From contig DATMYR010000067.1 of assembly GCA_035560815.1 (NCBI GenBank), positions 1 to 33,577 of the forward strand: a DNA stretch of 33,577 bases, read 5' to 3'. Origin of the DNA: Syntrophomonadaceae bacterium. GTDB lineage: Bacteria; Bacillota; Syntrophomonadia; Syntrophomonadales; Syntrophomonadaceae. The notes beneath the pieces are model-generated. The model was not told where the DNA came from and did not search any database. It saw nothing but the letters and a program-made list of their open reading frames with translations. The position numbers were made by a program, and so were the translations under genes. Positions 5,253 through 31,131 of the stretch are shown here, piece after piece; position 1 is the stretch's first letter; each line of letters opens with the position of its first letter.

Positions 5253-5280
5253 TTGACATTAGGGCAAGAACCAGTATAAT
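5253..5280 (+). promoter_or_regulatory. Consensus sigma-A-type promoter: TTGACA, 16-nt spacer, TATAAT
   Basis: TTGACA at 5253-5258, 16-nt spacer, TATAAT at 5275-5280. No ORF follows within several hundred bp. Confidence 0.4.
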
Positions 5281-5345
5281 GAAGATAATTAACAAGTAAT
5301 GCATACCTTGTACAGCTGAATATAGTAATAATTTTTGAGAGCCTT

Positions 5346-5380
5346 GAGCCCCTATTTTAGGGGCTCTTTGTCATTTATTC
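5346..5380 (+). terminator. Rho-independent terminator-like hairpin (GAGCCCCT / AGGGGCTC, then TTTGTCATTTATT)
   Basis: 8-bp GC-rich stem, 5-nt loop and a T-rich tail, about 65-95 nt downstream of the orphan promoter. Confidence 0.45.
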
Positions 5381-5779: not shown

Positions 5780-6340
5780 GTGATTCGTGTGCCTATAGAC
5801 AAATTCGCCGAAAGTGGAGAGAAACGCGGTTTGGTAATTGTTATTACTGGAAATGGAAAAGGAAAAACGACTTCTGCTTTCGGGCAGGCTTTGAGAGCCA
5901 CAGGACAGGGATACCGGGTCTGTATTATTCAGTTCATGAAGGGGAGAGCTTATGGAGAAGTTCTGGCCGTGCAGAAATACCTGCCGACCATCCAGCTGAT
6001 TCAATATGGACTGGATAGTTTCGTCATGCGGGATAATCCTGCACCGGTGGATATCGACCTGGCTCGCCAGGGCTTCGAAAAGGCCAAGGAGGTTATTCAA
6101 AGCGGGGATTTTGACATGGTTATTCTCGATGAAATCAATGTTGTTCTCGATTTTAACCTGGTACCGGAAGCAGATATCCTGGAGATGGTGAAAAACAAGC
6201 CCCCGGAATTGGATTTGGTCATGACCGGCCGCTATGCGTCCCAGGCTTTGAGAGAATTAGCCGATACGGTCAGTGAGGTTGGTGAAGTAAAACACCATTA
6301 TCAAGCTGGTATAAAGAACCGGGCCGGTATTGAATATTAA
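5780..6340 (+). CDS. cobO: Cob(I)yrinic acid a,c-diamide (corrinoid) adenosyltransferase, CobA/CobO/BtuR type
   Basis: P-loop GNGKGKTTSAFGQ plus the conserved IQFMKG ... DLVMTGR family motifs. GTG start directly after AAAGGAGG. Confidence 0.85.
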   Translation: MIRVPIDKFAESGEKRGLVIVITGNGKGKTTSAFGQALRATGQGYRVCIIQFMKGRAYGEVLAVQKYLPTIQLIQYGLDSFVMRDNPAPVDIDLARQGFEKAKEVIQSGDFDMVILDEINVVLDFNLVPEADILEMVKNKPPELDLVMTGRYASQALRELADTVSEVGEVKHHYQAGIKNRAGIEY

Positions 6341-6440
6341 AGAACTGGTAGTCGAAGAGCAAAGCAAGATCTAAGAACCATGGTGAAAGTTAGATAGAGA
6401 TAAGTTGGTTTGAGCGAGCGAAAAGAGGAGGGGTTACAGG

Positions 6441-8120
6441 ATGTTTACACCGGATGTACTCGAGCAATCCAAAACCATGAGGTCTAAATGGGAAGATGAA
6501 GTAAAAAAGATCGTGGCTAAAAAGGCCGACCAGAAGCCCGAGTGGACAACAGTATCAGACCTGGCCATCAAGCGTTTGTACGGCCCGGAAGACATCAGAG
6601 ACATGGATTTTGCCAAAGACATTAGCTACCCCGGACAATATCCATTTCTCCGTGGAAATCAGGCAACCGGATACCGAGGAAAATATTGGACCTTCAGAAT
6701 GTTTGCTGGTATGGGCAGCGCTGAAGAGACCAACAAGCGCTGGCATTATTTGCTTAATTCCGGACAAACCGGCCTAAGCACCGCTTTTGATTTCCCCACA
6801 CTGATGGGCTATGATACCGATTCCCCCAAAGCCCGGGGTGAATGCGGCAAATGCGGTGTGGCTATTGATTCTATAGAGGACTTTCAAAAGTTGATTAAAG
6901 ACATTCCACTGGATACCATTTCCACATCTATGACCATCAATCCCCCAGCAACGATTTTGTGGGCTATGTATTGCGCTTCTGCACAGATGCAGGGTATCGG
7001 TCTGGACAAGATCAATGGCACAATTCAGAACGATATGTTAAAAGAATTCATCGCGCAGAAGACTCTGATGTGCCCCCCCGAACCTTCGGTGAAGCTGATC
7101 AGCGATACTGTTGAATTCGGGACGAAGTATGTGCCCGGATGGAACACTATCAGCATCAGCGGTTACCACATTCGGGAAGCAGGAGCTACTGCTGTTCAGG
7201 AACTGGCCTTCACCCTGCGCGATGGCATGGAATATGTGGAAGACGTGATAAAACGTAAAGGGCTGCATGTGGATCAATTTGCTCCTCGGTTGTCCTTCTT
7301 CTTTAATGCCCACATCGATTTCTTTGAAGAGATTGCCAAACTACGGGCCGCTCGCCGCATCTGGGCCAAAGCCATGCGGGAGCGTTACAATTCCCAGGAT
7401 CAACGTTCATGGTGGATGCGTTTCCATACCCAGACTGCCGGGTGCTCCCTGACTGCCCAGCAGCCTTATAATAATGTGGTTCGAACCGCTGTCGAGGCCC
7501 TGGCCGCCGTTCTGGGAGGAACTCAATCCCTGCACACCAACTCTCTGGATGAGGTTTTATGCCTGCCTTCCGAACACGCGGTGCAAATCGCCTTAAGAAC
7601 TCAGCAGATCATCGCTGAAGAAACCGGTGTGACCAACACAATCGATCCCCTGGCTGGTTCCTATTTCATTGAATCCCTGACCAACGAGATGGAAGAGAAG
7701 GCCTGGGACTACATTCACAAGATCGATGATATGGGAGGTATGGTAGCCGCCATTGAAAGAGGTTTCCCGCAGATGGAAATATCCGATGCTGCTTATCGTT
7801 TCCAACGGCAGATTGATGCTGAAGAGAAGATCATGATCGGTGTCAACAAGTATAATACCGATGACGTAGTTGAAATCCCCTTTGTTGAGATTGATGACAC
7901 TGTGGAAAGAGAACAATTGGAGCGCCTGAGTGACTTAAAACGCCGGCGTGACAGCCGCAAGGTCTCCGAGTGTTTGAAAGACATCAAATCGGCCTGTGAA
8001 AAGGGTGACAATGTCATGCCATATTGCATCGAAGCCGTCAAAAACTATGCCACTGTTCAAGAAATTTGCGACGTATATCGGGAAGTCTACGGCGAATACC
8101 GTGACCCCGGCATATATTAG
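6441..8120 (+). CDS. Adenosylcobalamin-dependent acyl-CoA mutase, large (substrate-binding TIM-barrel) subunit, ICM-like signature
   Basis: Aligns by eye along its full length to the methylmalonyl-CoA mutase catalytic domain (FLRG ... WT.R.FAG ... GLS.AFD.PT ... GVAIDS ... SISGYH..EAGAT ... DQFAPRLSFF ... AKLRAAR). Has Phe in FRMFAGM and Gln in EFIAQKT where MCM has Tyr89 and Arg207. No B12-binding domain in this ORF. Confidence 0.9.
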   Translation: MFTPDVLEQSKTMRSKWEDEVKKIVAKKADQKPEWTTVSDLAIKRLYGPEDIRDMDFAKDISYPGQYPFLRGNQATGYRGKYWTFRMFAGMGSAEETNKRWHYLLNSGQTGLSTAFDFPTLMGYDTDSPKARGECGKCGVAIDSIEDFQKLIKDIPLDTISTSMTINPPATILWAMYCASAQMQGIGLDKINGTIQNDMLKEFIAQKTLMCPPEPSVKLISDTVEFGTKYVPGWNTISISGYHIREAGATAVQELAFTLRDGMEYVEDVIKRKGLHVDQFAPRLSFFFNAHIDFFEEIAKLRAARRIWAKAMRERYNSQDQRSWWMRFHTQTAGCSLTAQQPYNNVVRTAVEALAAVLGGTQSLHTNSLDEVLCLPSEHAVQIALRTQQIIAEETGVTNTIDPLAGSYFIESLTNEMEEKAWDYIHKIDDMGGMVAAIERGFPQMEISDAAYRFQRQIDAEEKIMIGVNKYNTDDVVEIPFVEIDDTVEREQLERLSDLKRRRDSRKVSECLKDIKSACEKGDNVMPYCIEAVKNYATVQEICDVYREVYGEYRDPGIY

Positions 8121-8144
8121 AAATTACTGGAGGAGGTAAGCAAT

Positions 8145-8549
8145 ATGTCTAACAGGAAAATCCGTATTTTGCTGGCGAAACCCGGTCTTGACGGCCATGA
8201 TCGCGGAGCCAAAGTCCTGGCTAGAGCTTTTCGTGACGCAGGCTTTGAAGTGATATATACCGGCTGTCACCAGACGCCGGAACAGATTGTTGGAGCAGCC
8301 CTGCAGGAGGATGTTGATATGGTAGGCTTAAGCTGTCTGTCCGGGGCTCATACCTATCTTTATCCCAGAGTAGCTGAGCTCCTAAGAGAGCAAGGCGCAG
8401 ATGATATTACCGTAGTCGGCGGGGGCATCATCCCCGATAAAGATTTTCAGCCCCTTTATGATGCAGGCTTAAAAGCCCTTTTTACTCCCGGTGCTACGCT
8501 GGAATCGATTTGTACATGGATTCAAGAAAACATCAAACCAAGGGATTAA
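8145..8549 (+). CDS. Acyl-CoA mutase small subunit (B12-binding domain, DxHxxG)
   Basis: 134 aa, [19 protein letters not shown] ... GLSCLSGAH ... VVGGGIIP. Classic cobalamin-binding Rossmann domain immediately downstream of the large subunit, with an AGGAGG ribosome-binding site. Confidence 0.85.
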
Positions 8550-8566
8550 TAAAGGACGTGATAAAT

Positions 8567-9523
8567 ATGGAGGAACTAGGGAAGAGGGCTATGGAGGGAG
8601 ATGTAAGGGCTGCCTCCCGACTGATAAGGAATATTGAAGACAACATCCCGGGAACCAATTTAGCGATTAAACAAATTTTCCCCCATACCGGTAAAGCCCA
8701 TGTTATAGGGCTGACCGGTGCGCCGGGAGCCGGTAAGAGTACCATAACCGATGAACTGATTATGGCTATTCGAAAAAAGAGCAAAACAGTGGGCGTATTA
8801 GCCGTTGACCCCACAAGTCCATTTACCGGGGGAGCTCTTCTGGGAGACCGAATTCGTATGCTGCGCCATGCAGAAGATACGGGGGTCTTCATCCGCAGTC
8901 TGGCCACCCGGGGGGCTATGGGCGGATTGTCCAAAGCTGTAGGCGATGGCATTCATGTTTTGGATGTAATGGGGAAAGACGATATCATCGTAGAGACTGT
9001 TGGTGTGGGGCAGCAGGAAGTTGACATTATCAATCATGCTCACACGGTGATCGTTGTTCTGGTCCCCGGCATGGGCGATGATGTGCAGGCGATTAAGGCC
9101 GGCTTGATGGAAATAGCTGATATTTTTGTAATAAACAAGGCTGATCGGGACGGGGCCAATAAGCTCTATAAAGAAACCAAGAATATGATCGGCATGGGTA
9201 AATGGTCCAGCGGTTGGGAGCCGCCCGTGCTCATGATCGAAAGTGTTATGGAGCCGCATTCTTTCGCGAAAAGCGTAGCAGAGCTCTATGATAAGATCGA
9301 AGAACACTACCAGCACTTGATCGATAAAAACCTGATGGCGGACCGGGCTTATCGAAAAGTAGTCACTGAACTGAATGACGCATTGCGGTCCGCTATCTTG
9401 GATCCGATTTTGGAAACCCTGAGTGCTTCAGGTGATTTCGATGAAATGATTCGGAAATTGATGATGAAGGAGTCTGATCCTTATACGCTGGCTGAAGCTG
9501 TGGCTGAAACGTATCTCAAGTAA
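8567..9523 (+). CDS. meaB: MeaB/ArgK-family G-protein chaperone of B12-dependent mutases
   Basis: P-loop GLTGAPGAGKST, switch region LAVDPTSPFTGGALLGDRIRM, ETVGVGQ, NKAD. The ATG at 8567 avoids overlap with the small subunit. An in-frame ATG at 8510 would overlap. Confidence 0.85.
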   Translation: MEELGKRAMEGDVRAASRLIRNIEDNIPGTNLAIKQIFPHTGKAHVIGLTGAPGAGKSTITDELIMAIRKKSKTVGVLAVDPTSPFTGGALLGDRIRMLRHAEDTGVFIRSLATRGAMGGLSKAVGDGIHVLDVMGKDDIIVETVGVGQQEVDIINHAHTVIVVLVPGMGDDVQAIKAGLMEIADIFVINKADRDGANKLYKETKNMIGMGKWSSGWEPPVLMIESVMEPHSFAKSVAELYDKIEEHYQHLIDKNLMADRAYRKVVTELNDALRSAILDPILETLSASGDFDEMIRKLMMKESDPYTLAEAVAETYLK

Positions 9524-9633
9524 CGAAGGATTCCATTTTCATGGCAGCTTTCCCGGAGGATATCACCGGTGCCCCGGCCGTAGACGGATTGGTTAGAAAA
9601 ACGGTTTACACGGGAAGGATGGTCAATATATCC

Positions 9634-10056
9634 ATGAAAAAGATGAAGATACTCTTAGCCAAAGCCGGCCTGGATCCCCATGACAAGGGCGTCAAATTAC
9701 TGGCCCACACCCTTAGAGATGTAGGTGGTCTTGATGTTGTCTACACAGGCCTCTACCGGACGGTAGAAGAGATTGTGGAAGAAGCCGTAAAGCACAATGT
9801 GGATATGGTTGGATTGAGCGTGCACACTGGTCTGCACATGACACTGTTTCCTACCTTGCGGGGACAACTGGATGGTGCAGGCCTCGGGCACGTACCGATT
9901 ATCGGCGGTGGAGTCATGCCCGACCAGGACATGAAGGCCCTAAAGACATGCGGGATTGTTGCTGAAATGTTTCGGTACACCCAAACTATTCAGGAAGTCA
10001 TCAATTGGCTATGGGCCGCCCAGGCGGCAGCAGCATGTCAAGAAGCAGCAGACTAA
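9634..10056 (+). CDS. Second stand-alone B12-binding domain protein (DxHxxG)
   Basis: KILLAKAGLDPHDKGVKLL ... VDMVGLSVHTGLH ... IIGGGVMP. Paralogous to the small subunit. ATG at 9634 after GGAAGGA. The long upstream extension from 9541 has no support. Confidence 0.75.
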   Translation: MKKMKILLAKAGLDPHDKGVKLLAHTLRDVGGLDVVYTGLYRTVEEIVEEAVKHNVDMVGLSVHTGLHMTLFPTLRGQLDGAGLGHVPIIGGGVMPDQDMKALKTCGIVAEMFRYTQTIQEVINWLWAAQAAAACQEAAD

Positions 10057-10070
10057 AGGAGGGAGTTCGT

Positions 10071-10610
10071 ATGGAACCTAGAAATGATGAAGATCAAGAG
10101 GCCATGAAAGATAAGGTCAAAACCCTGGCCAAAGGCAACTTCCGCAAGGGTTTGAACTGTGCAGAATCAGTGTATTTAGCACTGGTTTCCGCCGGGTTGG
10201 TGAATTTCCCACCGGAAACGGTAGCCTTAACGACGGTCTTTGGAGGTGGTATAGGACTGACTGGTGGAGTATGCGGGGCCCTGGTAGCTGCGGCTATGGG
10301 AATCAGCGCCAATCACGGACGCCGCGATCCAGCCCAGGGATCATTCGAAGAAATCGTCGACAGATTGTACGGCAATCCAGGACTATACCGCTTCTTTAAC
10401 CAGCTGCCGCATAAATTTGCCCAGGAGTTTGGGTCCACCCAGTGTGCTGAGTTGAACAAAGATTATCCTAACTGGTTTCAGAAAGAGCGTTTTCGTAAAT
10501 GTATGAACATAGTGGTTGAGACAGCCGGTTTGGCGGTAGACTATATTTATCAGGGTCAAAATGAAGGTTACAGCCAGGCCTTTGGTAAGAATATGGCCGG
10601 AAAAGCGTGA
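10071..10610 (+). CDS. C_GCAxxG_C_C family protein (putative redox-active, unknown function)
   Basis: LNCAESVY ... GGGIGLTGGVCGAL ... CAEL ... RKCMNIV matches the C-GCAxxG-C-C pattern. AAAGGAGGG ribosome-binding site 7 nt before the ATG at 10071. Confidence 0.7.
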   Translation: MEPRNDEDQEAMKDKVKTLAKGNFRKGLNCAESVYLALVSAGLVNFPPETVALTTVFGGGIGLTGGVCGALVAAAMGISANHGRRDPAQGSFEEIVDRLYGNPGLYRFFNQLPHKFAQEFGSTQCAELNKDYPNWFQKERFRKCMNIVVETAGLAVDYIYQGQNEGYSQAFGKNMAGKA

Positions 10611-10665
10611 ACGTGTCAAGAGAACAAAAGACGGCTTGACACCACCCTTGCGGCAGGGGGAGTCG

Positions 10666-11745
10666 ATGTTGAAACAACCGCTATTATTGCATATAAATCA
10701 CACGGTATTTCTTCGGGATGACGTCCTGGTCATGGTGGACCGGCGATATCTTCCTGGTAGGATTGAGGAAGTGTCTGCTCGCAGCTACGAAGAAGTGGCG
10801 GAGGCCATTGAAGGTATGATTGTCCAGGGGGCCGGTGATATTGCTATTACTGCTGGATATGGTCTATATCTGGCGGCCCGGGATGTGGAAAAGGATCCGA
10901 CTGCCAGTCAGGAAACTGTCTTGCAGTATCTAGAGAAGGCTCGGCAGCGGCTGGTTAGAACCCGGCCTACCGGGCATCATCTGGCGGCTCTTTTAAACAA
11001 AATGGTGAAGGAAGTAGACTGGGAGAAGGGCCGGTGTGCAGACCAACTCTTGGAGAGCGTGGAGCTGGCCATCGAGAAACAGCAGCGGCGTTCGGAACTG
11101 ACCGGCCGATGGGCTAGCGAGGTCCTGGAAAACGGGGATACCATATTGACTCATTGCTTTCCCGGAGCGGCTCTTTTGTATATGTTGTGTTTGGGCCGCG
11201 ATCAAGGTAAAGAAATAAAGGTTGTGGCCGGTGAAACACGCCCTTATCTGCAGGGAGCCCGGTTGACAGCCTGGTCCGTAGCCCAGTTGGGAATTCCCGT
11301 GACCTTAATCACAGATAATATGGCTGCCTATTGTATGAATGAAGGAATGGTGAACAAGGTGTTTACTGCGGCCGATCGTATTGCCATGGACGGGACGGTT
11401 GCCAACAAAGTGGGGACATTCCAATTAGCCCTGGTTGCCCGCTATCACCAGGTTCCTTTTTATGTGCTGGGCTATGGGGGACCGGACCGCAATTGTGCCA
11501 GTGGGGGCGACATCCCTATCGAAGTTCGCGATCCCCAGGAAGTTTTGTGTTTTAATGGAGTGAGAATAACCGGAGATAATGTGAAGGGCTTCTATCCCGC
11601 TTTCGATCTAACCCCACCCCAGATGGTGGAGGAGATTATCACCGACCGGGGAAGGTTTATTCCTTACCATATTCACCGTTACTGGAAAACTCGTCCCGAG
11701 GAAATCAATGGTTCGGGAGGTGTGTCACAAGCACGCTCTTTTTGA
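10666..11745 (+). CDS. eIF-2B alpha/beta/delta-family sugar-phosphate isomerase (MtnA-like; methylthioribose-1-P, 5-deoxyribose-1-P or ribose-1,5-bisP isomerase)
   Basis: Family motifs GAGDIAITAGYGL ... TRPTGHHLA ... LTHCFPGAALLY ... ETRPYLQGARLTAWS ... ADRIAMDGTVANKVGT ... VPFYVLG. Start at ATG 10666 after GGGGGAG. The ORF-track extension to 10561 overlaps the upstream gene. Confidence 0.8.
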   Translation: MLKQPLLLHINHTVFLRDDVLVMVDRRYLPGRIEEVSARSYEEVAEAIEGMIVQGAGDIAITAGYGLYLAARDVEKDPTASQETVLQYLEKARQRLVRTRPTGHHLAALLNKMVKEVDWEKGRCADQLLESVELAIEKQQRRSELTGRWASEVLENGDTILTHCFPGAALLYMLCLGRDQGKEIKVVAGETRPYLQGARLTAWSVAQLGIPVTLITDNMAAYCMNEGMVNKVFTAADRIAMDGTVANKVGTFQLALVARYHQVPFYVLGYGGPDRNCASGGDIPIEVRDPQEVLCFNGVRITGDNVKGFYPAFDLTPPQMVEEIITDRGRFIPYHIHRYWKTRPEEINGSGGVSQARSF

Positions 11746-12178: not shown

Positions 12179-13360
12179 ATGATTCAACGGGAAGAACTGG
12201 AGTCCAGGGTGCAGAGATTGCAGCACCAAATGCAAGTGAATGATTGCCAGGGATTTCTGATTATGCAGAATGTAGATCTCCTGTATTTCAGTGGCACCAT
12301 GCAAAATGCTCAACTTTATGTTCCGATACAGGGTCAACCCCTCCTGTTCTGTCGCAAAAGTTGTGAAAGGGCCGGGCAGGAAAGTCCCTGGACCTTGATA
12401 CCGGTAATCAACTATAAGAGTATCCCTGAAAAGATGGCCGAGTTAGGGTGCCAAATTCCACTGCGCCTGGCTTTAGAATATGATGTTATACCTGTTAATA
12501 GCTACTTGTTTTGCCGGAAGCTCTTCCCTCAGGCCGAGTTTATGGACGGCAGTTCCTGGATAAAACATATTCGGGCGGTGAAAAGTCCAGCAGAAATTGC
12601 CGCGCTTCGAACAGCCGGAAAAAACATGGCTTTGGTCTTTGGCCAGGTTGCAGGCATGATTCGCCCCGGCATAAGTGAGATGACCGTGGCAACCGAAGTG
12701 GAAAGACTAGCTCGCCAGTTTAATCATCAAGGCCCTGTTCGCTTGCGGGCCTTCAACCAGGAACTTTTTTTCGGGCACTTATTGAGCGGGGTCAGTGGAG
12801 CATTAGCCAGTTTCAACGATGGGGCAGCTGGAGGTCCGGGCCCCGGTCCCTTTTATCCGCAGGGCTCCGGATCCAGGCTGTTGGCCGCCCATGAACCGAT
12901 TATTCTGGACTATGTAGGATGTTTTGACGGGTATCAAGTGGACCAGACGCGTTGTTTTACCATCGGTGCGCTGCCGGATAATGTGTATCACGCGTTTCAA
13001 GTGGCTTTAGAGATTCAGGAGGCGGTGACAACCAGTGCCCGTCCCGGTGTTGCACCCGCTGCATTGTGGAATATCGCTCTGGCGAAAGCTGAGGTCGAGG
13101 GGTTAAAGGACCACTTCATGGGTCATGGGACTGATCAGGCCAAATTCGTGGGCCACGGCATTGGGCTGGAAGTAGACGAGTATCCAGTCCTGACTCGAGG
13201 CTTCAATGAACCCTTGCAAGAAAATACCGTGTTTGCCCTGGAACCTAAATTTGTGTTTCCCGGCCAGGGGATGGTAGGGATAGAAAACACCTGGCTGGTC
13301 ACCTCATCAGGTGTGGAAAAGATTACGATATTTCCCGATGACCTGGTAGTCATCGATTGA
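12179..13360 (+). CDS. M24-family metallopeptidase (Xaa-Pro aminopeptidase or creatinase-like)
   Basis: Pita-bread fold motifs (AVKSPAEIAALR ... DYVGCFDGYQVDQTR ... HGIGLEVDEYP ... ALEPKF ... GIENT). Confidence 0.85.
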   Translation: MIQREELESRVQRLQHQMQVNDCQGFLIMQNVDLLYFSGTMQNAQLYVPIQGQPLLFCRKSCERAGQESPWTLIPVINYKSIPEKMAELGCQIPLRLALEYDVIPVNSYLFCRKLFPQAEFMDGSSWIKHIRAVKSPAEIAALRTAGKNMALVFGQVAGMIRPGISEMTVATEVERLARQFNHQGPVRLRAFNQELFFGHLLSGVSGALASFNDGAAGGPGPGPFYPQGSGSRLLAAHEPIILDYVGCFDGYQVDQTRCFTIGALPDNVYHAFQVALEIQEAVTTSARPGVAPAALWNIALAKAEVEGLKDHFMGHGTDQAKFVGHGIGLEVDEYPVLTRGFNEPLQENTVFALEPKFVFPGQGMVGIENTWLVTSSGVEKITIFPDDLVVID

Positions 13361-13440: not shown

Positions 13441-13766
13441 AAATATAGAGGGAATGTCTTATTACTCCCGGGATTAGGGCATTTATTCCAATATCTCATT
13501 ATCTCTTCATCAAATGGCAGCCTGCAGCAAGAACACATGATGAAATATTTTCCCGCCCACGAATATCTCATTTCACGCAACCCCGATCAGCTTAATATTT
13601 TCTATAATTCCAAGCTTTTTCGATAACTTTAGTCAAGTCCGGTAAGGATTCCCATGCGTATTCCGCAGAAGGAGGTGGGCATTAGCTGGCATCTATGATA
13701 TGGGGGAGAGTGTTAGACTGCTCCACAGGTTTGGAGAATTCTGTTGCCCAAAAGGAGGGGAGTTGC

Positions 13767-14132
13767 ATGAAGTACTGGGAAAATGACATCCTGTCCGGAA
13801 TCTCGGAAAGCTGCTATCTGGACCCTGCTTATCATCCCGCATGCCTGGGCTGTGTGGACCGCATGGACTGTTATGGAGAAGTATTGTATGCGGATTTTAG
13901 AGTAAAGGCTTTGATTATGAGTGAACTCTTAGATCACAGTGATTGCCTGAATCCAATGAATGCTGATCGACTGGCTGAAGCCCTCGGTGTGGAGTGGGAG
14001 GAGGAGAAGGTCCGTAAGATTCTCTTAAGCAATTACTGCACGGATGGCCGTATTAAACGTGTGGTAAAGCTGGCCTTGGAAAGTGAGCGACACAGTCCCC
14101 AACCCCGGATCAGGGAGCTGGTTAGGGTCTGA
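13767..14132 (+). CDS. Small Cys-rich hypothetical protein (about 121 aa)
   Basis: ATG at 13767 after AAAAGGAGGGG. Cys cluster SCYLDPAYHPACLGCVDRMDCYG. The upstream 24-codon extension in the ORF track lacks a ribosome-binding site. Confidence 0.5.
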   Translation: MKYWENDILSGISESCYLDPAYHPACLGCVDRMDCYGEVLYADFRVKALIMSELLDHSDCLNPMNADRLAEALGVEWEEEKVRKILLSNYCTDGRIKRVVKLALESERHSPQPRIRELVRV

Positions 14133-18089: not shown

Positions 18090-18181
18090 AGGTGCAAAGA
18101 GCATCCAGAATTATTTATAAATATAGCGAACCTTTTTGTTCTTTGCTGTGTATACCAGTTAGCTATTGGTATGGAAGGAAG

Positions 18182-18730
18182 ATGATTTTGCAGTCCATTA
18201 CCCAGGAACAGGCCGAAGCGATATTCCGAGAATATTCAAGCTATGTTTATCGGGTTGCACTTTTTATATCTCGATCCAGCACCATGGCCGAGGATATCAC
18301 CCAGGAAACCTTCCTACAGGTGTTTCGCAAGTACGGCAGTTATGATGCCACCCGACCTATTGGACCATGGTTGTACAAGATTACTCTAAATATAACCCGC
18401 AACACCTTGCGTAAACAAAAGTGGCTGCAGCTGTTTATGGAAATCCCTGAACAGAAATCCACCCATTCGATTGAGGAGGAAGTACTGAAAAACCAGATAG
18501 ACCAGGAATTGTGGCAAGAAATTAATCACCTTACATTAAAAAGTCGTGAAGTAATCGTACTGCATTACTATTTGGGCTTAAAGCTCATTGAAATTGCCAA
18601 AGTCCTGGATATTCCTCTGGGAACCTGCAAATCCAGACTTCATACGGCAATGAATTCTCTGACCAAAAAACTCCGAGCCAACGATCATTTCATTTCTTAC
18701 CAGGGAGGGGATCAGCATGAAAAGCTATGA
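18182..18730 (+). CDS. ECF-subfamily RNA polymerase sigma-70 factor
   Basis: Region 2 (YVYRVALFISRSSTMAEDITQETFLQVFRK ... GPWLYKITLN) and region 4 (LTLKSREVIVLHYYLGLKLIEIAKVLDIPLGTCKSRL). ATG at 18182 after GGAAGGAAG. 3' end overlaps the next gene by 14 nt. Confidence 0.85.
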   Translation: MILQSITQEQAEAIFREYSSYVYRVALFISRSSTMAEDITQETFLQVFRKYGSYDATRPIGPWLYKITLNITRNTLRKQKWLQLFMEIPEQKSTHSIEEEVLKNQIDQELWQEINHLTLKSREVIVLHYYLGLKLIEIAKVLDIPLGTCKSRLHTAMNSLTKKLRANDHFISYQGGDQHEKL

Positions 18731-19700
18731 ATCCGAAATAGAAGCACTGCTGAATGATAAATTGAATGAATATGAGCCGTCAGTACAGTTCGGCCGGGTT
18801 TGGAGTGAATACCGTAAAAATTATATGAAGGAGTCTGCGATCAGGCGTCTTTTTAAAGCTCCCAGGATTGCAGTGGTGGTTCTGGCAGCTCTTCTCATTA
18901 TTGGTTTTGTCTTGAAACCGCGTGTAGATAAAATCGACTATCCTTTTGTAGATGACCCGAGAGTGATTGGCAGGTGGCAAACTGTAGATTGTGTCAAAAC
19001 CATCGATCAATTTGTCCCGGGACAAAAGGCCCTCCTGGATCAGTTGCCTGTCAATCAACTGGTTTTCGTAAAAGGCGGAAAAATGCTCATGCAAAATGAA
19101 GATACCAATGGCAGCTTGGTGCCCAGTGTTTCTACGTGGACCAAAGGATTGATGATATATATAGTAGATAAAACTGCCAGTCAATATGAGATCAGGGAAG
19201 TCAATGGCACTGCGTATATGTTTCTCGAATGGAAAACCGGGGATTATGTTTATTGGCATCGCAAGCCATCCTATTATGTCCTTGTGAAAATAGATGATCA
19301 TGACTACTCTGACTTCAAGGTTGATGTAAAAGAAGATAAAATTGACTATCCTTTTGAAGACGACCCCCAGTTGCCTGGAACATGGCAGGCTGTCGATGCA
19401 GTATCCAGCATGGATCAGTTCCAGCCTATGGATCAGCAATACCCGGGGGTGCTTTATTTGCAGCGGTTGGATATCAAAGAAAAGGGCAGCATCTCAGAGG
19501 TTACAACGAATGGGCAGAACCCGGAAGGCGATCTTACCTGGACCAGGGGCTTGATAATCTCTAAGCAAGAAAAGACGGCAAGCCATTACGAAATAAAAAA
19601 GTTCGGAAGAGACACTTACTTATTCTATGAGTGGAAAAGTGGAGATTACAAGACAAGGGGAATGAAGCCCAAATACTATGTATTAAAACGGATAACATAG
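18717..19700 (+). CDS. Putative anti-sigma factor: N-terminal cytoplasmic segment, one TM helix, two tandem copies of an uncharacterised roughly 125-aa domain
   Basis: Overlaps the sigma gene. Strong ribosome-binding site (CAGGGAGGGG). TM segment IAVVVLAALLIIGFVL. Repeats begin KIDYPFVDDP / KIDYPFEDDP and end YYVLVKI / YYVLKRI. Confidence 0.75.
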   Translation: MKSYESEIEALLNDKLNEYEPSVQFGRVWSEYRKNYMKESAIRRLFKAPRIAVVVLAALLIIGFVLKPRVDKIDYPFVDDPRVIGRWQTVDCVKTIDQFVPGQKALLDQLPVNQLVFVKGGKMLMQNEDTNGSLVPSVSTWTKGLMIYIVDKTASQYEIREVNGTAYMFLEWKTGDYVYWHRKPSYYVLVKIDDHDYSDFKVDVKEDKIDYPFEDDPQLPGTWQAVDAVSSMDQFQPMDQQYPGVLYLQRLDIKEKGSISEVTTNGQNPEGDLTWTRGLIISKQEKTASHYEIKKFGRDTYLFYEWKSGDYKTRGMKPKYYVLKRIT

Positions 19701-19760: not shown

Positions 19761-19953
19761 TGAGAGGTGCAAATTAAACCGAGGGTCATGGATATTTTTT
19801 ATCTGTGGCTACGAACCTTTCCCAGACTTCCTGTGTATAACAGGTAAGTGATTTGGACGGGAGGGCAGATTACACCAGGCTTTTGGGCAAATGCCTATCT
19901 AGCACGAAGCTAGTTTGTATGTATTGGCTTTTTACGAAAGGGGACGATCTCAC

Positions 19954-20835
19954 ATGGAACAAAATGCACCACAAAAAAAACGGTTCACGCTAAAAAGAGT
20001 ACCCAAAATTCTCTTGTTGGTTCTTGCTGCACTGGTGGTCTTTGGTTTTGCTTATGGCCCTGTCATAGACAAAACAGACTATCCTTTTGTCAATGACCCG
20101 ACTGTTATCGGAAAATGGCAGGCGATTGATTTTGTGGAGAAACAGGATCAGTTTACCCCGGAACAAAAGTCCTTTGCCGGGGATCTATATCTTTCCTCAT
20201 TGGTCTTTATTAAGGATGGGCAGATGCTTTTCGCGGCCGATAACGGCAAACTGGGTCCCACTTCATTCACCTGGACCCAGGGCCTGGTGCTCTGTAAACA
20301 AGAGAAAACAGCTAGTAAATATGAGATCCAGGAAATCAATGGCGCTGCTTATATGTTCTTTGAATGGAAGAGCGGAGACTATACCTACCTGCACCGGGCG
20401 CCGCAGTATTACGTCTTAAAGAAAGTGGACAATGATGATTATTCCAACTACAAGCCCACCGCTACCCAGGACAAAATTGATTATCCATTTGTCGATGACC
20501 CCCAGCTGCTCGGTCAATGGCAGAGTGTTGATTTTGTGCCAACTGTTGCTACATTCGTTCCCGGCACTACCAGTTGGAGAGGCGAGCTGTTTCTGAAGCA
20601 AATTGATATCGCTGCACAGGGAGAAATAGCAGAGCTGACTTCTGAAAACCGAAATCCATATCAAGATCTTACCTGGACCAAAGGTTTGATTCTGGATAAA
20701 CAACAGAAAACAGCCAGTCAATATGAAATAAAGGAGTTAAAAGGAGACGCCTATTTGTTCTACCAATGGAAGAGCGGGGATTACATTTACAGGGGAATGG
20801 AACCTCAATATTATGTCTTGAAAAAAGTGAAGTAA
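19954..20835 (+). CDS. Membrane-anchored paralog of the anti-sigma extracytoplasmic region (two more copies of the same roughly 125-aa domain, no anti-sigma N-domain)
   Basis: Short N-terminus, TM helix ILLLVLAALVVFGFAY, then KTDYPFVNDP ... YYVLKKV and KIDYPFVDDP ... YYVLKKVK. ATG at 19954 after GAAAGGGGA. Confidence 0.75.
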   Translation: MEQNAPQKKRFTLKRVPKILLLVLAALVVFGFAYGPVIDKTDYPFVNDPTVIGKWQAIDFVEKQDQFTPEQKSFAGDLYLSSLVFIKDGQMLFAADNGKLGPTSFTWTQGLVLCKQEKTASKYEIQEINGAAYMFFEWKSGDYTYLHRAPQYYVLKKVDNDDYSNYKPTATQDKIDYPFVDDPQLLGQWQSVDFVPTVATFVPGTTSWRGELFLKQIDIAAQGEIAELTSENRNPYQDLTWTKGLILDKQQKTASQYEIKELKGDAYLFYQWKSGDYIYRGMEPQYYVLKKVK

Positions 20836-26487: not shown

Positions 26488-27093
26488 TTGGGTGTAGAGG
26501 AAATCGCTGCGGAAGACAGGAGTGGCATCTTCGTAACGGGAGCTATTGTAGATGTCGAAACAACTGGTTTCAGCCCTGAGTATGACGAAATCATTGAGAT
26601 CTGTATCATCCTTTTTGTTTTTAATAGAGAAACCGGAGTGGTTAGCCAGATCATTGAAGAGTATGTAGGGCTGCGTGAGCCGGCTTGTGGAATACGACCC
26701 GGGGCTGCCCGGGTTAATGGCATTACCGTGGCCGATGTCCAGGGAAGGGATCTTGACTACGCTAAAGTGTCGGCAATCCTTGAGCAAGCTGAATTCCTTA
26801 TCGCTCATAATGCTTCCTTTGATCGCGGTTTCCTGGTTCGCCTTTTTCCCCAGGTTGCCATCAAATCCTGGTTTTGCTCGATGTCGGGGATTAACTGGCG
26901 GGGTAAGGGGTTTCCCAACCGCCGTCTTCAGGACCTATTATCCTGCCATGATATCAGGCCAGGAAGGGCTCACCGGGCTCGGGACGATGTGCGAGCCACC
27001 CTGGAACTCCTGTCTTTCAGCCAGGAATGGGGGGCGACCTACCTGTCTGAACTGCTGATAGGGCGGAGGATGAAGGCCAACAAACGGAGGTGA
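26488..27093 (+). CDS. DnaQ-like (DEDDh) 3'-5' exonuclease
   Basis: Exo I VDVETTG, Exo II IAHNASFDRGFL, Exo III HRARDDV. TTG start 9 nt after AAGGAG. Confidence 0.75.
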   Translation: MGVEEIAAEDRSGIFVTGAIVDVETTGFSPEYDEIIEICIILFVFNRETGVVSQIIEEYVGLREPACGIRPGAARVNGITVADVQGRDLDYAKVSAILEQAEFLIAHNASFDRGFLVRLFPQVAIKSWFCSMSGINWRGKGFPNRRLQDLLSCHDIRPGRAHRARDDVRATLELLSFSQEWGATYLSELLIGRRMKANKRR

Positions 27094-27779
27094 AACATGG
27101 CTCAAAAGTCGCAGATGGCAGTCATGACTGCAAGATGATTGAGCTGAAACAGCTTGCCAGTGCTGTCCACCAATACTTCTGGCAAAATAAGCTGTTATTG
27201 GTGCAATCACTAACTGAGGGCCAGCAACTCCTGGAGGCGCTGATACGGGAAGGGATAGCCTGGGCTAATCTGCGACCCATCACACCGCTGGAGTTGGCTC
27301 TGGAAATGATTCAACCAGATATGCAGCAACGGGGTTTAGAACGAATCGAGCCGGATCAACTTTTGTTTATGTTGAACGAAATCATCGCGGGCCTTGAACG
27401 GCGAGGGGAGATTGTCTATTTTCGACAACTCCTGGAGACGGGCGTCTTGACCCAGGTGATCGTGAAGAGCATCACTGAATTACGTCTGACCGAGGTGGAG
27501 GCCGCTACCCTTAGTCCCGAGCAACTTGGGGACCCCCAAAAGGCAAGGGAAATGGGCCTTATCCTCAACGCCTACGATCTGGAGCTGGAAAGCCGAGGCT
27601 TGATGGATGATGCAGCGGTCTTCCAGCGCGCAAATGGACTACTTTTAACCGGTACTAACTTATTGTCAGAAAAAGTAATTATTATACCTGAAAAACTACC
27701 ACTATCAACAATAGCGAATCATTTTGTCAGCCAGCTTAAGAAACATTCTGGAATCATCCTCTGGGAAAACCCGCTGTAG
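27090..27779 (+). CDS. Hypothetical protein translationally coupled to the exonuclease (ATGA overlap), possibly a truncated remnant
   Basis: No recognisable catalytic motif. The reading frame runs into an AT-rich tract (about 27650-27930) and ends without a terminator. Confidence 0.4.
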   Translation: MKHGSKVADGSHDCKMIELKQLASAVHQYFWQNKLLLVQSLTEGQQLLEALIREGIAWANLRPITPLELALEMIQPDMQQRGLERIEPDQLLFMLNEIIAGLERRGEIVYFRQLLETGVLTQVIVKSITELRLTEVEAATLSPEQLGDPQKAREMGLILNAYDLELESRGLMDDAAVFQRANGLLLTGTNLLSEKVIIIPEKLPLSTIANHFVSQLKKHSGIILWENPL

Positions 27780-30723: not shown

Positions 30724-31131
30724 CCTATCAACCTCCCGCCTTTTGCCCGGTGTTGAAACAAAAGAAGCCTTTCCGCCGGCAGACCGGATTGGAAAGACCC
30801 CATGATTTTCATAATCATGCCCCACCGGCCATGATTGCTTCTCGGTAGCATTTATTATATCATATCAGGGCATCGCTTCCAGGTAACATCTGTTAACGAT
30901 TCGGGCACAGGAGAAAGTCACGAACATATTCGTGGTATAATAAGGGAAAAATGGGATAGGCGTTCGAATAATCATGTATCGCTCGCTGCTTTTGTAGTAC
31001 GATTTGCTCGTCAATCATCCCAAGATTGACGATTTCTACGATAACTGGCGTCTCATTGCATAAATCTTAGGCAGTGTATGAATCACCTGGGCAATAAAGC
31101 AGGCTATAGATGAAGGGATACGATATAAATC

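What the first reader, a model, noticed from the sequence alone, without database searches (positions are those of the whole stretch)
6441..8120. Mutase large subunit carries the Phe/Gln active-site pair of isobutyryl-CoA-type mutases, not the Tyr/Arg pair of methylmalonyl-CoA mutase
Against the P. shermanii MutB motifs IRQY(89)AGF and EFMVR(207)NT, this protein has FRMF-AGM and EFIAQ-KT. Phe/Gln at these positions is the signature reported for isobutyryl-CoA mutase (IcmA Phe80/Gln198) and pivalyl-CoA mutase relatives. The split large (559 aa) and small (134 aa) subunits also match the IcmA/IcmB pattern. This suggests butyryl-CoA to isobutyryl-CoA isomerisation (isobutyrate/butyrate metabolism) rather than propionate metabolism. 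My alignment to MutB is from memory, so this is tentative.
Basis: partly seen in the sequence, partly recalled or inferred. Interest (0 to 1): 0.55.

Follow-up and report, generated by a model that had tools for sequence, protein, structure and literature searches.

The report
Isobutyryl-CoA-type B12 mutase, not methylmalonyl
This gene, labelled in databases as a methylmalonyl-CoA mutase relative, has the active-site residues of an isobutyryl-CoA mutase, so it most likely interconverts butyrate- and isobutyrate-derived CoA esters in a syntrophic anaerobe; this reading is already made in the field's genomic papers, though no enzyme of this clade appears to have been assayed.

Summary
ORF 6441-8120 (559 aa) has Phe88 and Gln206 at the positions of P. 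shermanii MutB Tyr89 and Arg207. Three independent alignments agree, and the MutB numbering was verified. The crystallised isobutyryl-CoA mutase IcmF has the same residues (Phe598, Gln742). The query also has Ala where HcmA has Asp117.

The Phe/Ala/Gln triad is invariant in 80 orthologues (66-87% identity) from Bacillota, Syntrophales and other Desulfobacterota, and Dehalococcoidia. Some genomes also carry a separate Tyr/Arg paralogue next to it. A third, independently chosen column (MutB 122) also separates the two classes perfectly and places the query with the Phe/Gln type.

In 23 orthologous loci the cassette lies close to short-chain beta-oxidation genes. In about 15 it lies directly downstream of them on the same strand.

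The window's gene order (adenosyltransferase, large, small, MeaB) matches the "isobutyryl-CoA mutase cluster" Slip_0757-0760 of the isobutyrate-isomerising Syntrophothermus lipocalidus (PMC5017805).

Caveats: the deep phylogeny is unresolved, no butyrate genes lie in the window, and there is no enzymology.

This is a new member of a known kind, of modest interest. The split-subunit argument is not diagnostic, and the pivalyl-CoA mutase remark is not borne out.

The parts
5780..6340 (+). ATP:cob(I)alamin adenosyltransferase (CobA/BtuR type), which makes and delivers adenosylcobalamin. The likely start is the GTG at 5789, after the AAAGGAGG ribosome-binding site.
   Evidence: PF02572 at 209 bits. 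NF004637 at 187.7 bits and TIGR00708 at 167.1 bits. Sequence around the start. Found next to the mutase in 50 of 81 loci, the window included.
6441..8120 (+). Acyl-CoA mutase large (substrate-binding) subunit, 559 aa. Pocket residues are Phe88 (6702-6704), Ala115 (6783-6785) and Gln206 (7056-7058). The catalytic Gln196, Tyr242/His243 and His329/Gln331 are intact.
8145..8549 (+). Mutase small (cobalamin-binding) subunit, 134 aa. DxHxxG motif 'DGHDRG', with the His ligand codon at 8196-8198.
   Evidence: TIGR00640 at 166 bits. Best PDB hits are 2yxb at 150 bits and HcmB (4r3u_C) at 131 bits. Motif confirmed.
8567..9523 (+). MeaB-type G-protein chaperone (the open frame starts at 8510; the likely ATG is 8567). 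P-loop GAPGAGKS.
   Evidence: TIGR00750 at 316.6 bits, above the cut-off of 240.75. P-loop. Conserved position in 64 of 81 loci.
9541..10056 (+). Second mutase small-subunit paralogue, 171 aa. DxHxxG motif 'DPHDKG', with the His codon at 9679-9681. Its partner and role are unknown, and whether it belongs to the system is uncertain.
   Evidence: PF02310. TIGR00640 at 108 bits. Best PDB hit is HcmB at 109 bits. Present after MeaB in L001, L002, L004-L008, L010 and L011.

Best explanation
Genes 5780-9523 encode a stand-alone (unfused, IcmA/IcmB-like) adenosylcobalamin-dependent isobutyryl-CoA mutase together with its cofactor machinery.

The 559-aa large subunit binds the acyl-CoA in its barrel domain. 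The 134-aa small subunit binds cobalamin base-off/His-on through its DxHxxG histidine. Homolysis of the Co-C bond gives a 5'-deoxyadenosyl radical, which abstracts a hydrogen from the substrate. The thioester carbon then migrates 1,2, interconverting n-butyryl-CoA and isobutyryl-CoA.

Phe88 and Gln206 replace the Tyr and Arg that hold the free carboxylate of methylmalonyl- or succinyl-CoA. The pocket therefore fits a methyl group instead of a carboxylate. The adenosyltransferase makes and hands over AdoCbl, and MeaB gates loading and removal of damaged cofactor.

In a syntrophic fatty-acid oxidiser this links isobutyrate, for example from valine, to butyrate beta-oxidation, and the reaction is reversible.

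Shown here: the residues, their conservation, the cassette composition and the context in orthologues. Inferred: the substrate, the radical mechanism (by homology) and the physiological direction.
For: 1. Pocket residues: Phe88/Ala115/Gln206 match IcmF Phe598/Ala/Gln742. They differ from MCM and Ecm (Tyr/Ala/Arg), HcmA (Ile/Asp/Gln) and Xaut_5043 (Leu/Leu/Asn).
2. The triad is invariant in 80 orthologues across three phyla.
3. Columns chosen without the query clade: MutB position 122 is Leu in 12 of 12 other Phe/Gln proteins and in 0 of 65 Tyr/Arg proteins, and the query has Leu. The query also agrees with the Phe/Gln class at MutB 170 (Pro), 208 (Lys), 245 (Ile) and 98 (Thr). Among the top 25 discriminating columns, 14 favour the Phe/Gln class and 9 the Tyr/Arg class.
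4. The catalytic residues common to active mutases are retained.
5. The protein fails the NCBIfam MCM equivalog model: 642 bits against a cut-off of 876.
6. L042 and L044 hold a Tyr/Arg paralogue with its own small subunit beside the Phe/Gln cassette, so the two types are not redundant.
7. In 23 orthologous loci, beta-oxidation genes lie within 8 kb. The fullest form is a co-directional ACAD-thiolase-HBD-ECH-ACAD run followed by large-small-MeaB. An AbfD-family gene lies directly upstream in L012 and L016.
8. The gene order is the same as Slip_0757-0760 of the isobutyrate-isomerising S. lipocalidus. The supplementary table lists no homologue for the two non-isomerising Syntrophomonas strains.
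9. Similar cassettes are called ICM in Syntrophomonas BUT1 and in Syntrophomonadaceae bin23.
Against: No enzyme of this clade has been assayed, as far as the held literature shows. Global similarity to IcmF is low: 257 bits, against 529 for HcmA and 491 for human MCM. The nearest non-orthologous relatives are about equally distant whatever their triad: Phe/Gln 52-53%, Tyr/Arg 50-54%, Ile/Asp/Gln 49-50%. In the NJ tree the grouping with the other Phe/Gln and HCM-type sequences has only 3-10% bootstrap support, so common descent with characterised ICMs is not shown. The window itself holds no butyrate or isobutyrate activation genes or beta-oxidation genes. I could not obtain the S. lipocalidus or S. 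cinnamonensis IcmA sequences to test orthology directly. IcmF-type pockets also turn over isovaleryl-/pivalyl-CoA slowly (from memory of Cracan and Banerjee 2012), so specificity is not proven by two residues.
Confidence: 0.8

Rival explanations
1. It is an acyl-CoA mutase for another uncharged acyl-CoA, with isobutyryl-CoA only a side substrate. Candidates are isovaleryl-/pivalyl-CoA or a substrate not yet described.
For: The clade is a distinct lineage with 100% bootstrap support, only about 47% identical to IcmF-type proteins and other Phe/Gln clusters. The family shows more than 40 different pocket triads, most of them uncharacterised. In Syntrophomonadaceae the cassette travels with a second small subunit, an MtnA-like isomerase, an M24 peptidase and a C_GCAxxG protein rather than with butyrate genes.
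Against: The pocket triad is identical to IcmF, and a further class-specific column agrees. The presumed native pivalyl-CoA mutase has a different triad, Leu/Leu/Asn. Context in many orthologues is a C4-type beta-oxidation operon without carboxylase genes for isovaleryl-CoA breakdown.
Confidence: 0.1
2. It is a 2-hydroxyisobutyryl-CoA / 3-hydroxybutyryl-CoA mutase (HCM-like).
For: HcmA is the best solved-structure hit at 529 bits. The second small subunit is most similar to HcmB. An Ile/Asp/Gln representative (P0124) is the nearest sister in the NJ tree with 64% bootstrap. 3-hydroxybutyryl-CoA dehydrogenase and thiolase genes lie next to some orthologues.
Against: Both HCM-defining residues are absent: Ile90 is Phe and Asp117 is Ala, in all 80 orthologues. 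There is no 2-hydroxyisobutyrate-CoA ligase nearby, unlike the Xaut_5018-5021 cluster.
Confidence: 0.04
3. It is a genuine methylmalonyl-CoA mutase, as the database names imply, serving propionate or succinate metabolism.
For: Database names: 'methylmalonyl-CoA mutase family protein' and 'EC 5.4.99.2'. About 45-54% identity to Tyr/Arg-type enzymes. MeaB and the adenosyltransferase also accompany MCMs.
Against: Both carboxylate-binding residues (Tyr89, Arg207) are replaced in every orthologue. The protein scores below the NCBIfam MCM equivalog cut-off. A separate Tyr/Arg paralogue coexists in the same locus in L042 and L044. No epimerase or carboxyltransferase genes lie in the window.
Confidence: 0.03

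Closest known systems
IcmF (fused isobutyryl-CoA mutase) of Cupriavidus metallidurans, PDB 4xc6, with its close orthologue in Ideonella dechloratans
   Same: Same pocket triad, Phe598/Ala/Gln742 against Phe88/Ala115/Gln206. Shared 'RMF' and 'STAFD' motifs. Same components: B12 domain, G-protein and substrate barrel.
   Different: IcmF is one ~1,090-aa polypeptide; here there are three separate genes. The substrate domain scores only 257 bits and is about 47% identical or less over aligned columns. The query scores 338 bits against the NCBIfam IcmF cut-off of 1500.
IcmA/IcmB of Streptomyces cinnamonensis (stand-alone isobutyryl-CoA mutase; Phe80/Gln198 cited from memory of Ratnatilleke et al. 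1999)
   Same: Split large (~560 aa) and small (~135 aa) subunits, with a Phe/Gln pocket as reported.
   Different: From memory, icmB in Streptomyces is not adjacent to icmA, whereas here the genes form a tight cassette with MeaB and the adenosyltransferase.
Slip_0757-0760 'isobutyryl-CoA mutase gene cluster' of Syntrophothermus lipocalidus TGB-C1 (PMC5017805), and the cassettes of Syntrophomonas BUT1 (PMC6687939) and Syntrophomonadaceae bin23 (PMC8674449)
   Same: Same family (Syntrophomonadaceae). Same four genes in the same order: adenosyltransferase, N-terminal-domain subunit, B12 subunit, MeaB. The host organism demonstrably isomerises isobutyrate to butyrate.
   Different: Those assignments are themselves bioinformatic. 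Sequence-level orthology to the window was not tested because the sequences could not be retrieved. The window adds a second small-subunit gene.
HcmAB 2-hydroxyisobutyryl-CoA mutase (Aquincola tertiaricarbonis, PDB 4r3u; Xaut_5018-5021)
   Same: Highest overall similarity among solved structures (529 bits). Split subunits. Gln at the Arg207 position. Leu at MutB position 122.
   Different: HcmA has Ile90 and Asp117, which bind the hydroxyl group. The query has Phe and Ala.
Methylmalonyl-CoA mutase (P. shermanii MutB 1req, human MMUT 2xij, split Tyr/Arg enzymes of anaerobes)
   Same: Same fold, cofactor, catalytic Tyr243/His244 and chaperone system. 45-54% identity.
   Different: Tyr89 and Arg207 are replaced by Phe and Gln, and His/Gln122 by Leu. 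The query scores below the MCM equivalog cut-off.

Membership tests
Adenosylcobalamin-dependent acyl-CoA mutase superfamily | Large-subunit substrate barrel domain (Pfam PF01642 / TIGR00641) | tested here: met
   TIGR00641 at 759 bits against a cut-off of 303.8, covering residues 35-556. PDB hits at E = 1e-157.
Adenosylcobalamin-dependent acyl-CoA mutase superfamily | Separate or fused B12-binding domain with the DxHxxG histidine ligand | tested here: met
   Small subunit 'DGHDRG', TIGR00640 at 166 bits.
Adenosylcobalamin-dependent acyl-CoA mutase superfamily | Catalytic residues equivalent to MutB Gln197, Tyr243, His244, His328 and Gln330 | tested here: met
   All are conserved in the query and its orthologues.
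Isobutyryl-CoA mutase (ICM, EC 5.4.99.13) | Phe at the MutB Tyr89 position (IcmF Phe598) | tested here: met
   Phe88, invariant in 80 orthologues.
Isobutyryl-CoA mutase (ICM, EC 5.4.99.13) | Gln at the MutB Arg207 position (IcmF Gln742) | tested here: met
   Gln206, invariant in 80 orthologues.
Isobutyryl-CoA mutase (ICM, EC 5.4.99.13) | Further class-specific columns shared by Phe/Gln-type proteins, chosen without the query clade | tested here: met
   MutB position 122 is Leu in 12 of 12 Phe/Gln proteins and 0 of 65 Tyr/Arg proteins, and the query has Leu. The query also has Pro at 170, Lys at 208, Ile at 245 and Thr at 98. Among the top 25 columns, 14 favour the Phe/Gln class and 9 the Tyr/Arg class.
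Isobutyryl-CoA mutase (ICM, EC 5.4.99.13) | Phylogenetic grouping with a biochemically characterised ICM | tested here: inconclusive
   NJ tree of 119 sequences. The query clade has 100% support. It joins the other Phe/Gln sequences (including IcmF) and the HCM-type sequences with only 3-10% bootstrap support.
Isobutyryl-CoA mutase (ICM, EC 5.4.99.13) | Interconversion of butyryl-CoA and isobutyryl-CoA in vitro | not testable with these tools
   Requires enzymology.
Isobutyryl-CoA mutase (ICM, EC 5.4.99.13) | Genomic link to butyryl-CoA metabolism | tested here: inconclusive
   None in the window. Present in 23 of 80 orthologous loci, several as one co-directional operon.
IcmF (fused ICM) | Single polypeptide of B12 domain, G-domain and substrate domain; NCBIfam NF045497 at 1500 bits or more | tested here: not met
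   Three separate genes. 338 bits.
Methylmalonyl-CoA mutase (EC 5.4.99.2) | Tyr89 and Arg207 binding the substrate carboxylate | tested here: not met
   Phe and Gln instead.
Methylmalonyl-CoA mutase (EC 5.4.99.2) | NCBIfam equivalog NF006944 at or above its cut-off | tested here: not met
   642 bits against a cut-off of 876. The model covers the fused enzyme, so part of the shortfall is due to length.
2-Hydroxyisobutyryl-CoA mutase (HCM) | Ile90 and Asp117 (HcmA numbering) | tested here: not met
   Phe88 and Ala115.
Ethylmalonyl-CoA mutase (Ecm/MeaA) | Retains Tyr and Arg for the carboxylate; Gly in place of MutB His328 | tested here: not met
   The M. aquaticum MeaA, next to ccr, has Tyr/Arg and Gly. 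The query has Phe/Gln and His.
Pivalyl-CoA mutase (PCM; Xaut_5043/5044, identity from memory of Kitanishi et al. 2015) | Pocket as in Xaut_5043 (Leu / Leu / Asn at the three positions) | tested here: not met
   The query has Phe/Ala/Gln. No paper on PCM is held in the library.

The most novel reading that the evidence does not exclude
The clade is an independently evolved, horizontally spread lineage of acyl-CoA mutases, 66-87% identical across three phyla. On this reading its Phe/Gln pocket is convergent with IcmA/IcmF. Its real role in Syntrophomonadaceae would then go beyond simple butyrate/isobutyrate isomerisation. One possibility is a different uncharged acyl-CoA substrate. Another is an enzyme working with two alternative B12 subunits, coupled through the conserved MtnA-like isomerase to salvage of 5'-deoxyadenosine lost from the cofactor.
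Probability: 0.12. Interest if true: 0.5.

Novelty: new member of a known kind. Interest (0 to 1): 0.25.

Why it matters
Automatic annotation calls this protein, and thousands of close relatives in anaerobic digesters, sediments and aquifers, a methylmalonyl-CoA mutase (family) protein. That implies propionate or succinate metabolism. Reading it as an isobutyryl-CoA mutase changes metabolic reconstructions of syntrophs: it gives them a route from isobutyrate (a product of valine fermentation) into butyrate beta-oxidation, and back. It also identifies candidate enzymes for microbial isobutyrate production.

The three-column signature is MutB positions 89, 122 and 207. Together with the survey across 80 loci, it gives a simple rule for re-annotating the clade. 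The idea itself is not new, because field papers already use this assignment, so the gain is confirmation and scope rather than discovery.

Tried and rejected
- The primary biochemical papers are not held in the library: Cracan 2010, Cracan and Banerjee 2012, Jost 2015 (both papers), Kitanishi 2015 and Yaneva 2012. Residue roles in IcmA and PCM therefore rest on memory. The IcmF residues and their numbering were checked directly against the 4xc6 sequence.
- Searches for Phe80/Gln198 or Tyr89/Arg207 text found nothing relevant.
- I could not retrieve S. lipocalidus Slip_0758 or S. cinnamonensis IcmA. The Fig. S2 tree of PMC5017805 is an image. A plasmid-collection search with the Phe/Gln representative P0164 found only hits below 48% identity.
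- Cluster names for the Phe/Gln representatives were uninformative.
- A first NJ tree on all 150 representatives was degraded by fragmentary or chimeric representatives. A Biopython NJ run timed out. The tree was redone on 119 intact sequences.
- Rfam found no riboswitch or other RNA in the window.
- I did not run structure prediction. Sequence E-values of 1e-157 already fix the fold, and the tool returns no coordinates for inspecting the pocket.
Full report
**What is there.** The window is a 33,577-bp contig of a Syntrophomonadaceae MAG. The predicted protein is 100% identical to an NCBI entry named 'methylmalonyl-CoA mutase family protein'. On the + strand a tight run of genes reads as follows:
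- 5780-6340: CobA/BtuR-type ATP:corrinoid adenosyltransferase.
- 6441-8120: mutase large subunit, 559 aa.
- 8145-8549: B12-binding small subunit, 134 aa.
- 8567-9523: MeaB G-protein chaperone.
- 9541-10056: a second B12-binding small-subunit paralogue, 171 aa.
- Then a C_GCAxxG_C_C protein, an MtnA-like isomerase and an M24 peptidase.

Upstream lie chemotaxis genes and a GAF-PAS-HD-GYP protein. No Rfam family, and so no cobalamin riboswitch, reaches threshold anywhere in the window.

**Checking the observation.** FRMFAGM is at residues 85-91 and EFIAQKT at residues 202-208. HMMER pairwise alignment with P. shermanii MutB (1req_A) puts the query's Phe88 opposite the Tyr of 'IRQYAGF' and Gln206 opposite the Arg of 'EFMVRNT'. 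Two MAFFT alignments with further references give the same columns. The residues shared by all active mutases (MutB Gln197, Tyr243/His244, His328/Gln330) are intact. The small subunit has the DxHxxG cobalamin-ligand motif.

**What the two residues mean, tested on sequences.** The primary papers were not in the held library, so I assembled references from sequence:
- MutB, human MCM and HcmA, from the PDB alignments.
- An IcmF from an Ideonella plasmid that aligns end to end with the crystallised C. metallidurans IcmF at 1875 bits.
- A MeaA/Ecm from Methylobacterium aquaticum lying next to crotonyl-CoA carboxylase/reductase.
- The two mutases on the Xanthobacter autotrophicus Py2 plasmid. Xaut_5021 is in an HCM-type cluster with a CoA ligase. 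Xaut_5043/5044 I recall as the native pivalyl-CoA mutase.
- Tyr/Arg-type split enzymes from Streptomyces, Paraburkholderia and Acetoanaerobium.

At MutB-89 / HcmA-117 / MutB-207 the triads are as follows:

| Enzyme | Triad |
|---|---|
| MCM and Ecm | Tyr/Ala/Arg |
| HcmA and Xaut_5021 | Ile/Asp/Gln |
| Xaut_5043 | Leu/Leu/Asn |
| IcmF | Phe/Ala/Gln |
| Query | Phe/Ala/Gln |

Counting in the 4xc6 alignment, with its 20-residue tag, the IcmF residues are Phe598 and Gln742. These are the numbers I remember from the IcmF structural work. The query therefore has the ICM pocket. It lacks both carboxylate ligands of MCM and ECM and both hydroxyl-binding residues of HCM.

**Is it more than a local oddity?** A scan of one genome per GTDB species returned 80 orthologues at 66-87% identity. 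They come from Syntrophomonadaceae, Desulfosporosinus, Sporomusa, Syntrophales/Smithella, Desulfobotulus, Desulfohalobiaceae and Dehalococcoidia. All 80 have Phe/Ala/Gln. Two of these loci (L042, L044) also carry a Tyr/Ala/Arg paralogue (53% identity) with its own small subunit, immediately upstream of the Phe/Gln cassette. The two types therefore coexist as distinct enzymes.

An exhaustive HMMER search of 1.84 billion representatives found 24,212 family members. Among the best 150 plus my references, 74 are Tyr/Ala/Arg, 19 are Phe/Ala/Gln, 4 are Ile/Asp/Gln and the rest show dozens of other triads.

As an independent test I ranked alignment columns by how well they separate 65 Tyr/Arg proteins from 12 Phe/Gln proteins. 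The query clade and the two original positions were left out of this ranking. The best column (MutB 122) is Leu in all 12 Phe/Gln proteins and in none of the Tyr/Arg proteins, and the query clade has Leu. The query also sides with the Phe/Gln class at MutB 170, 208, 245 and 98. Among the top 25 columns it sides with the Phe/Gln class at 14 and with the Tyr/Arg class at 9.

**Phylogeny.** I built an NJ tree from 119 intact sequences, 518 columns and 300 bootstraps. The query and six orthologues from three phyla form a clade with 100% support. That clade joins an Ile/Asp/Gln representative with 64% support. It then joins all other Phe/Gln sequences (including IcmF) with 10% support, and HcmA with 3%. 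It is not nested among Tyr/Arg enzymes, but the deep nodes are unresolved.

Overall identity does not discriminate either. The nearest Phe/Gln, Tyr/Arg and Ile/Asp/Gln relatives are all about 50-54% identical. HcmA (529 bits) and human MCM (491 bits) outscore IcmF (257 bits). The refutation criterion 'clusters firmly with bona fide MCMs' is not met. Common ancestry with characterised ICMs is also not demonstrated, and convergence remains possible.

**Genomic context.** The window itself has no butyrate or isobutyrate genes. Across the orthologous loci the conserved core is large-small-MeaB plus the adenosyltransferase, which sits upstream in Bacillota and downstream in Syntrophales.

In 23 loci, beta-oxidation genes lie within 8 kb. 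In Syntrophales (L021, L024, L026, L030) the order is acyl-CoA dehydrogenase, thiolase, 3-hydroxyacyl-CoA dehydrogenase, enoyl-CoA hydratase, acyl-CoA dehydrogenase, then large, small, MeaB, all co-directional. Desulfohalobiaceae and Desulfovermiculus (L047, L049, L059, L067) and Dehalococcoidia (L075-L077) show shorter versions of the same arrangement. In L012 and L016 an AbfD-family, 4-hydroxybutyryl-CoA-dehydratase-like gene lies directly upstream. In L017 and L018, CobT and CobS are nearby. This is what one expects if the product is n-butyryl-CoA entering beta-oxidation. It is not what one expects for methylmalonyl-CoA.

**Literature.**
- Narihiro et al. [quoted passage not shown] It consists of adenosyltransferase, N-terminal-domain subunit, B12 subunit and MeaB, which is exactly the window's order. 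No homologue is listed for the two non-isomerising Syntrophomonas strains.
- Ziels et al. 2019 (PMC6687939) report putative ICM genes in Syntrophomonas BUT1 that are 65-83% similar to those of S. lipocalidus.
- PMC8674449 reports an ICM cassette in Syntrophomonadaceae bin23.

I found no enzymology for this clade. I could not retrieve the S. lipocalidus sequence to confirm orthology directly.

**Mechanism.** By homology with the structurally characterised mutases, the small subunit binds AdoCbl base-off/His-on. Co-C homolysis yields the 5'-deoxyadenosyl radical, which abstracts a substrate hydrogen, and the thioester group then migrates 1,2. Replacing Tyr89 and Arg207 with Phe and Gln removes the carboxylate-binding site and leaves a pocket for the methyl group of isobutyryl-CoA. 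MeaB and the adenosyltransferase load and repair the cofactor. The residues and the cassette are shown here. The substrate and the physiological direction are inferred. I put this at 0.8. The rivals are another uncharged acyl-CoA as the main substrate (0.1), HCM (0.04) and true MCM (0.03).

The observation and the main interpretation are right. Two supporting remarks are weak. Split subunits occur in HCM, the presumed PCM and many Tyr/Arg enzymes. The presumed pivalyl-CoA mutase does not share the Phe/Gln pair.

**Novelty and interest.** This is a new, uncharacterised member of a known enzyme kind. The same assignment has already been made bioinformatically for close relatives. The value here is confirmation, a cleaner signature (MutB positions 89, 122 and 207), the breadth of the clade and its beta-oxidation context. 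Interest is modest (0.25).

Noticed in passing
window 9541-10056 (+): A second acyl-CoA-mutase small-subunit paralogue, 171 aa, with an intact DxHxxG motif ('DPHDKG') and a ~30-aa N-terminal extension. It follows MeaB, and there is no second large subunit in the window. Its best solved-structure hit is HcmB. It is conserved at this position in 9 Syntrophomonadaceae and Desulfosporosinus loci (L001, L002, L004-L008, L010, L011). Its partner and role are unknown.
   Followed up: partly
window 10561-11745 (+); L001-L005, L007, L008, L010, L016-L020, L071, L072: An MtnA-like (methylthioribose-1-phosphate isomerase family) gene recurs beside the Phe/Gln mutase cassette in 16 of 81 loci (the window included), in more than one arrangement. 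In Syntrophomonadaceae it is downstream on the same strand. In deltaproteobacterial MAGs L017-L020 and L072 it is divergent, about 1.3 kb upstream. In L016 it lies about 6.8 kb upstream. An untested idea is that it isomerises 5-deoxyribose-1-phosphate during salvage of 5'-deoxyadenosine lost from adenosylcobalamin.
   Followed up: partly
window 10005-10610 and 12179-13360 (+); several loci: A C_GCAxxG_C_C putative redox protein (13 loci), an M24 peptidase/creatinase-family protein (11 loci) and, in other loci, DUF2284 (13 loci) also travel with the cassette across phyla. Their functions are unknown.
   Followed up: partly
window 5253-5376 (+): A perfect sigma-70 consensus promoter (TTGACA, 16-nt spacer, TATAAT) at 5253-5280 is followed about 65 nt later by a strong terminator-like hairpin (GAGCCCCTA...TAGGGGCTC plus a T-run, 5346-5376). 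It lies in the 677-bp gap upstream of the adenosyltransferase. It could be a small RNA or a leader. No Rfam family matches.
   Followed up: no
L042 4704-6320 and L044 4876-6492: A Tyr/Ala/Arg (MCM-type) large subunit with its own small subunit lies immediately upstream of the Phe/Ala/Gln large-small(-MeaB-ATR) cassette in two Syntrophales MAGs. The two mutase types are tandem and may share one chaperone and one adenosyltransferase.
   Followed up: partly
top 150 family representatives (P0121-P0270): The acyl-CoA mutase family shows more than 40 different residue triads at the three specificity positions (for example Val/Val/Gly, Val/Val/Arg, Ile/Val/His, Asn/Val/Ser). Most have no characterised member, which suggests many undiscovered substrate specificities.
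   Followed up: no
L034 (4,146-bp contig labelled Methanoregulaceae archaeon): This contig carries an acyl-CoA dehydrogenase and a Phe/Gln mutase 78% identical to the query. It is most likely a bacterial contig mis-binned into an archaeal MAG.
   Followed up: no
window 27931-30825 (-), 13695-14132, 18717-19700, 19915-20835, 27090-27779: A 964-aa ORF has only weak AAA/Torsin matches. Four further ORFs of 145-327 aa have no Pfam match. One of them follows an ECF-type sigma factor (18092-18730) and may be its anti-sigma factor.
   Followed up: no
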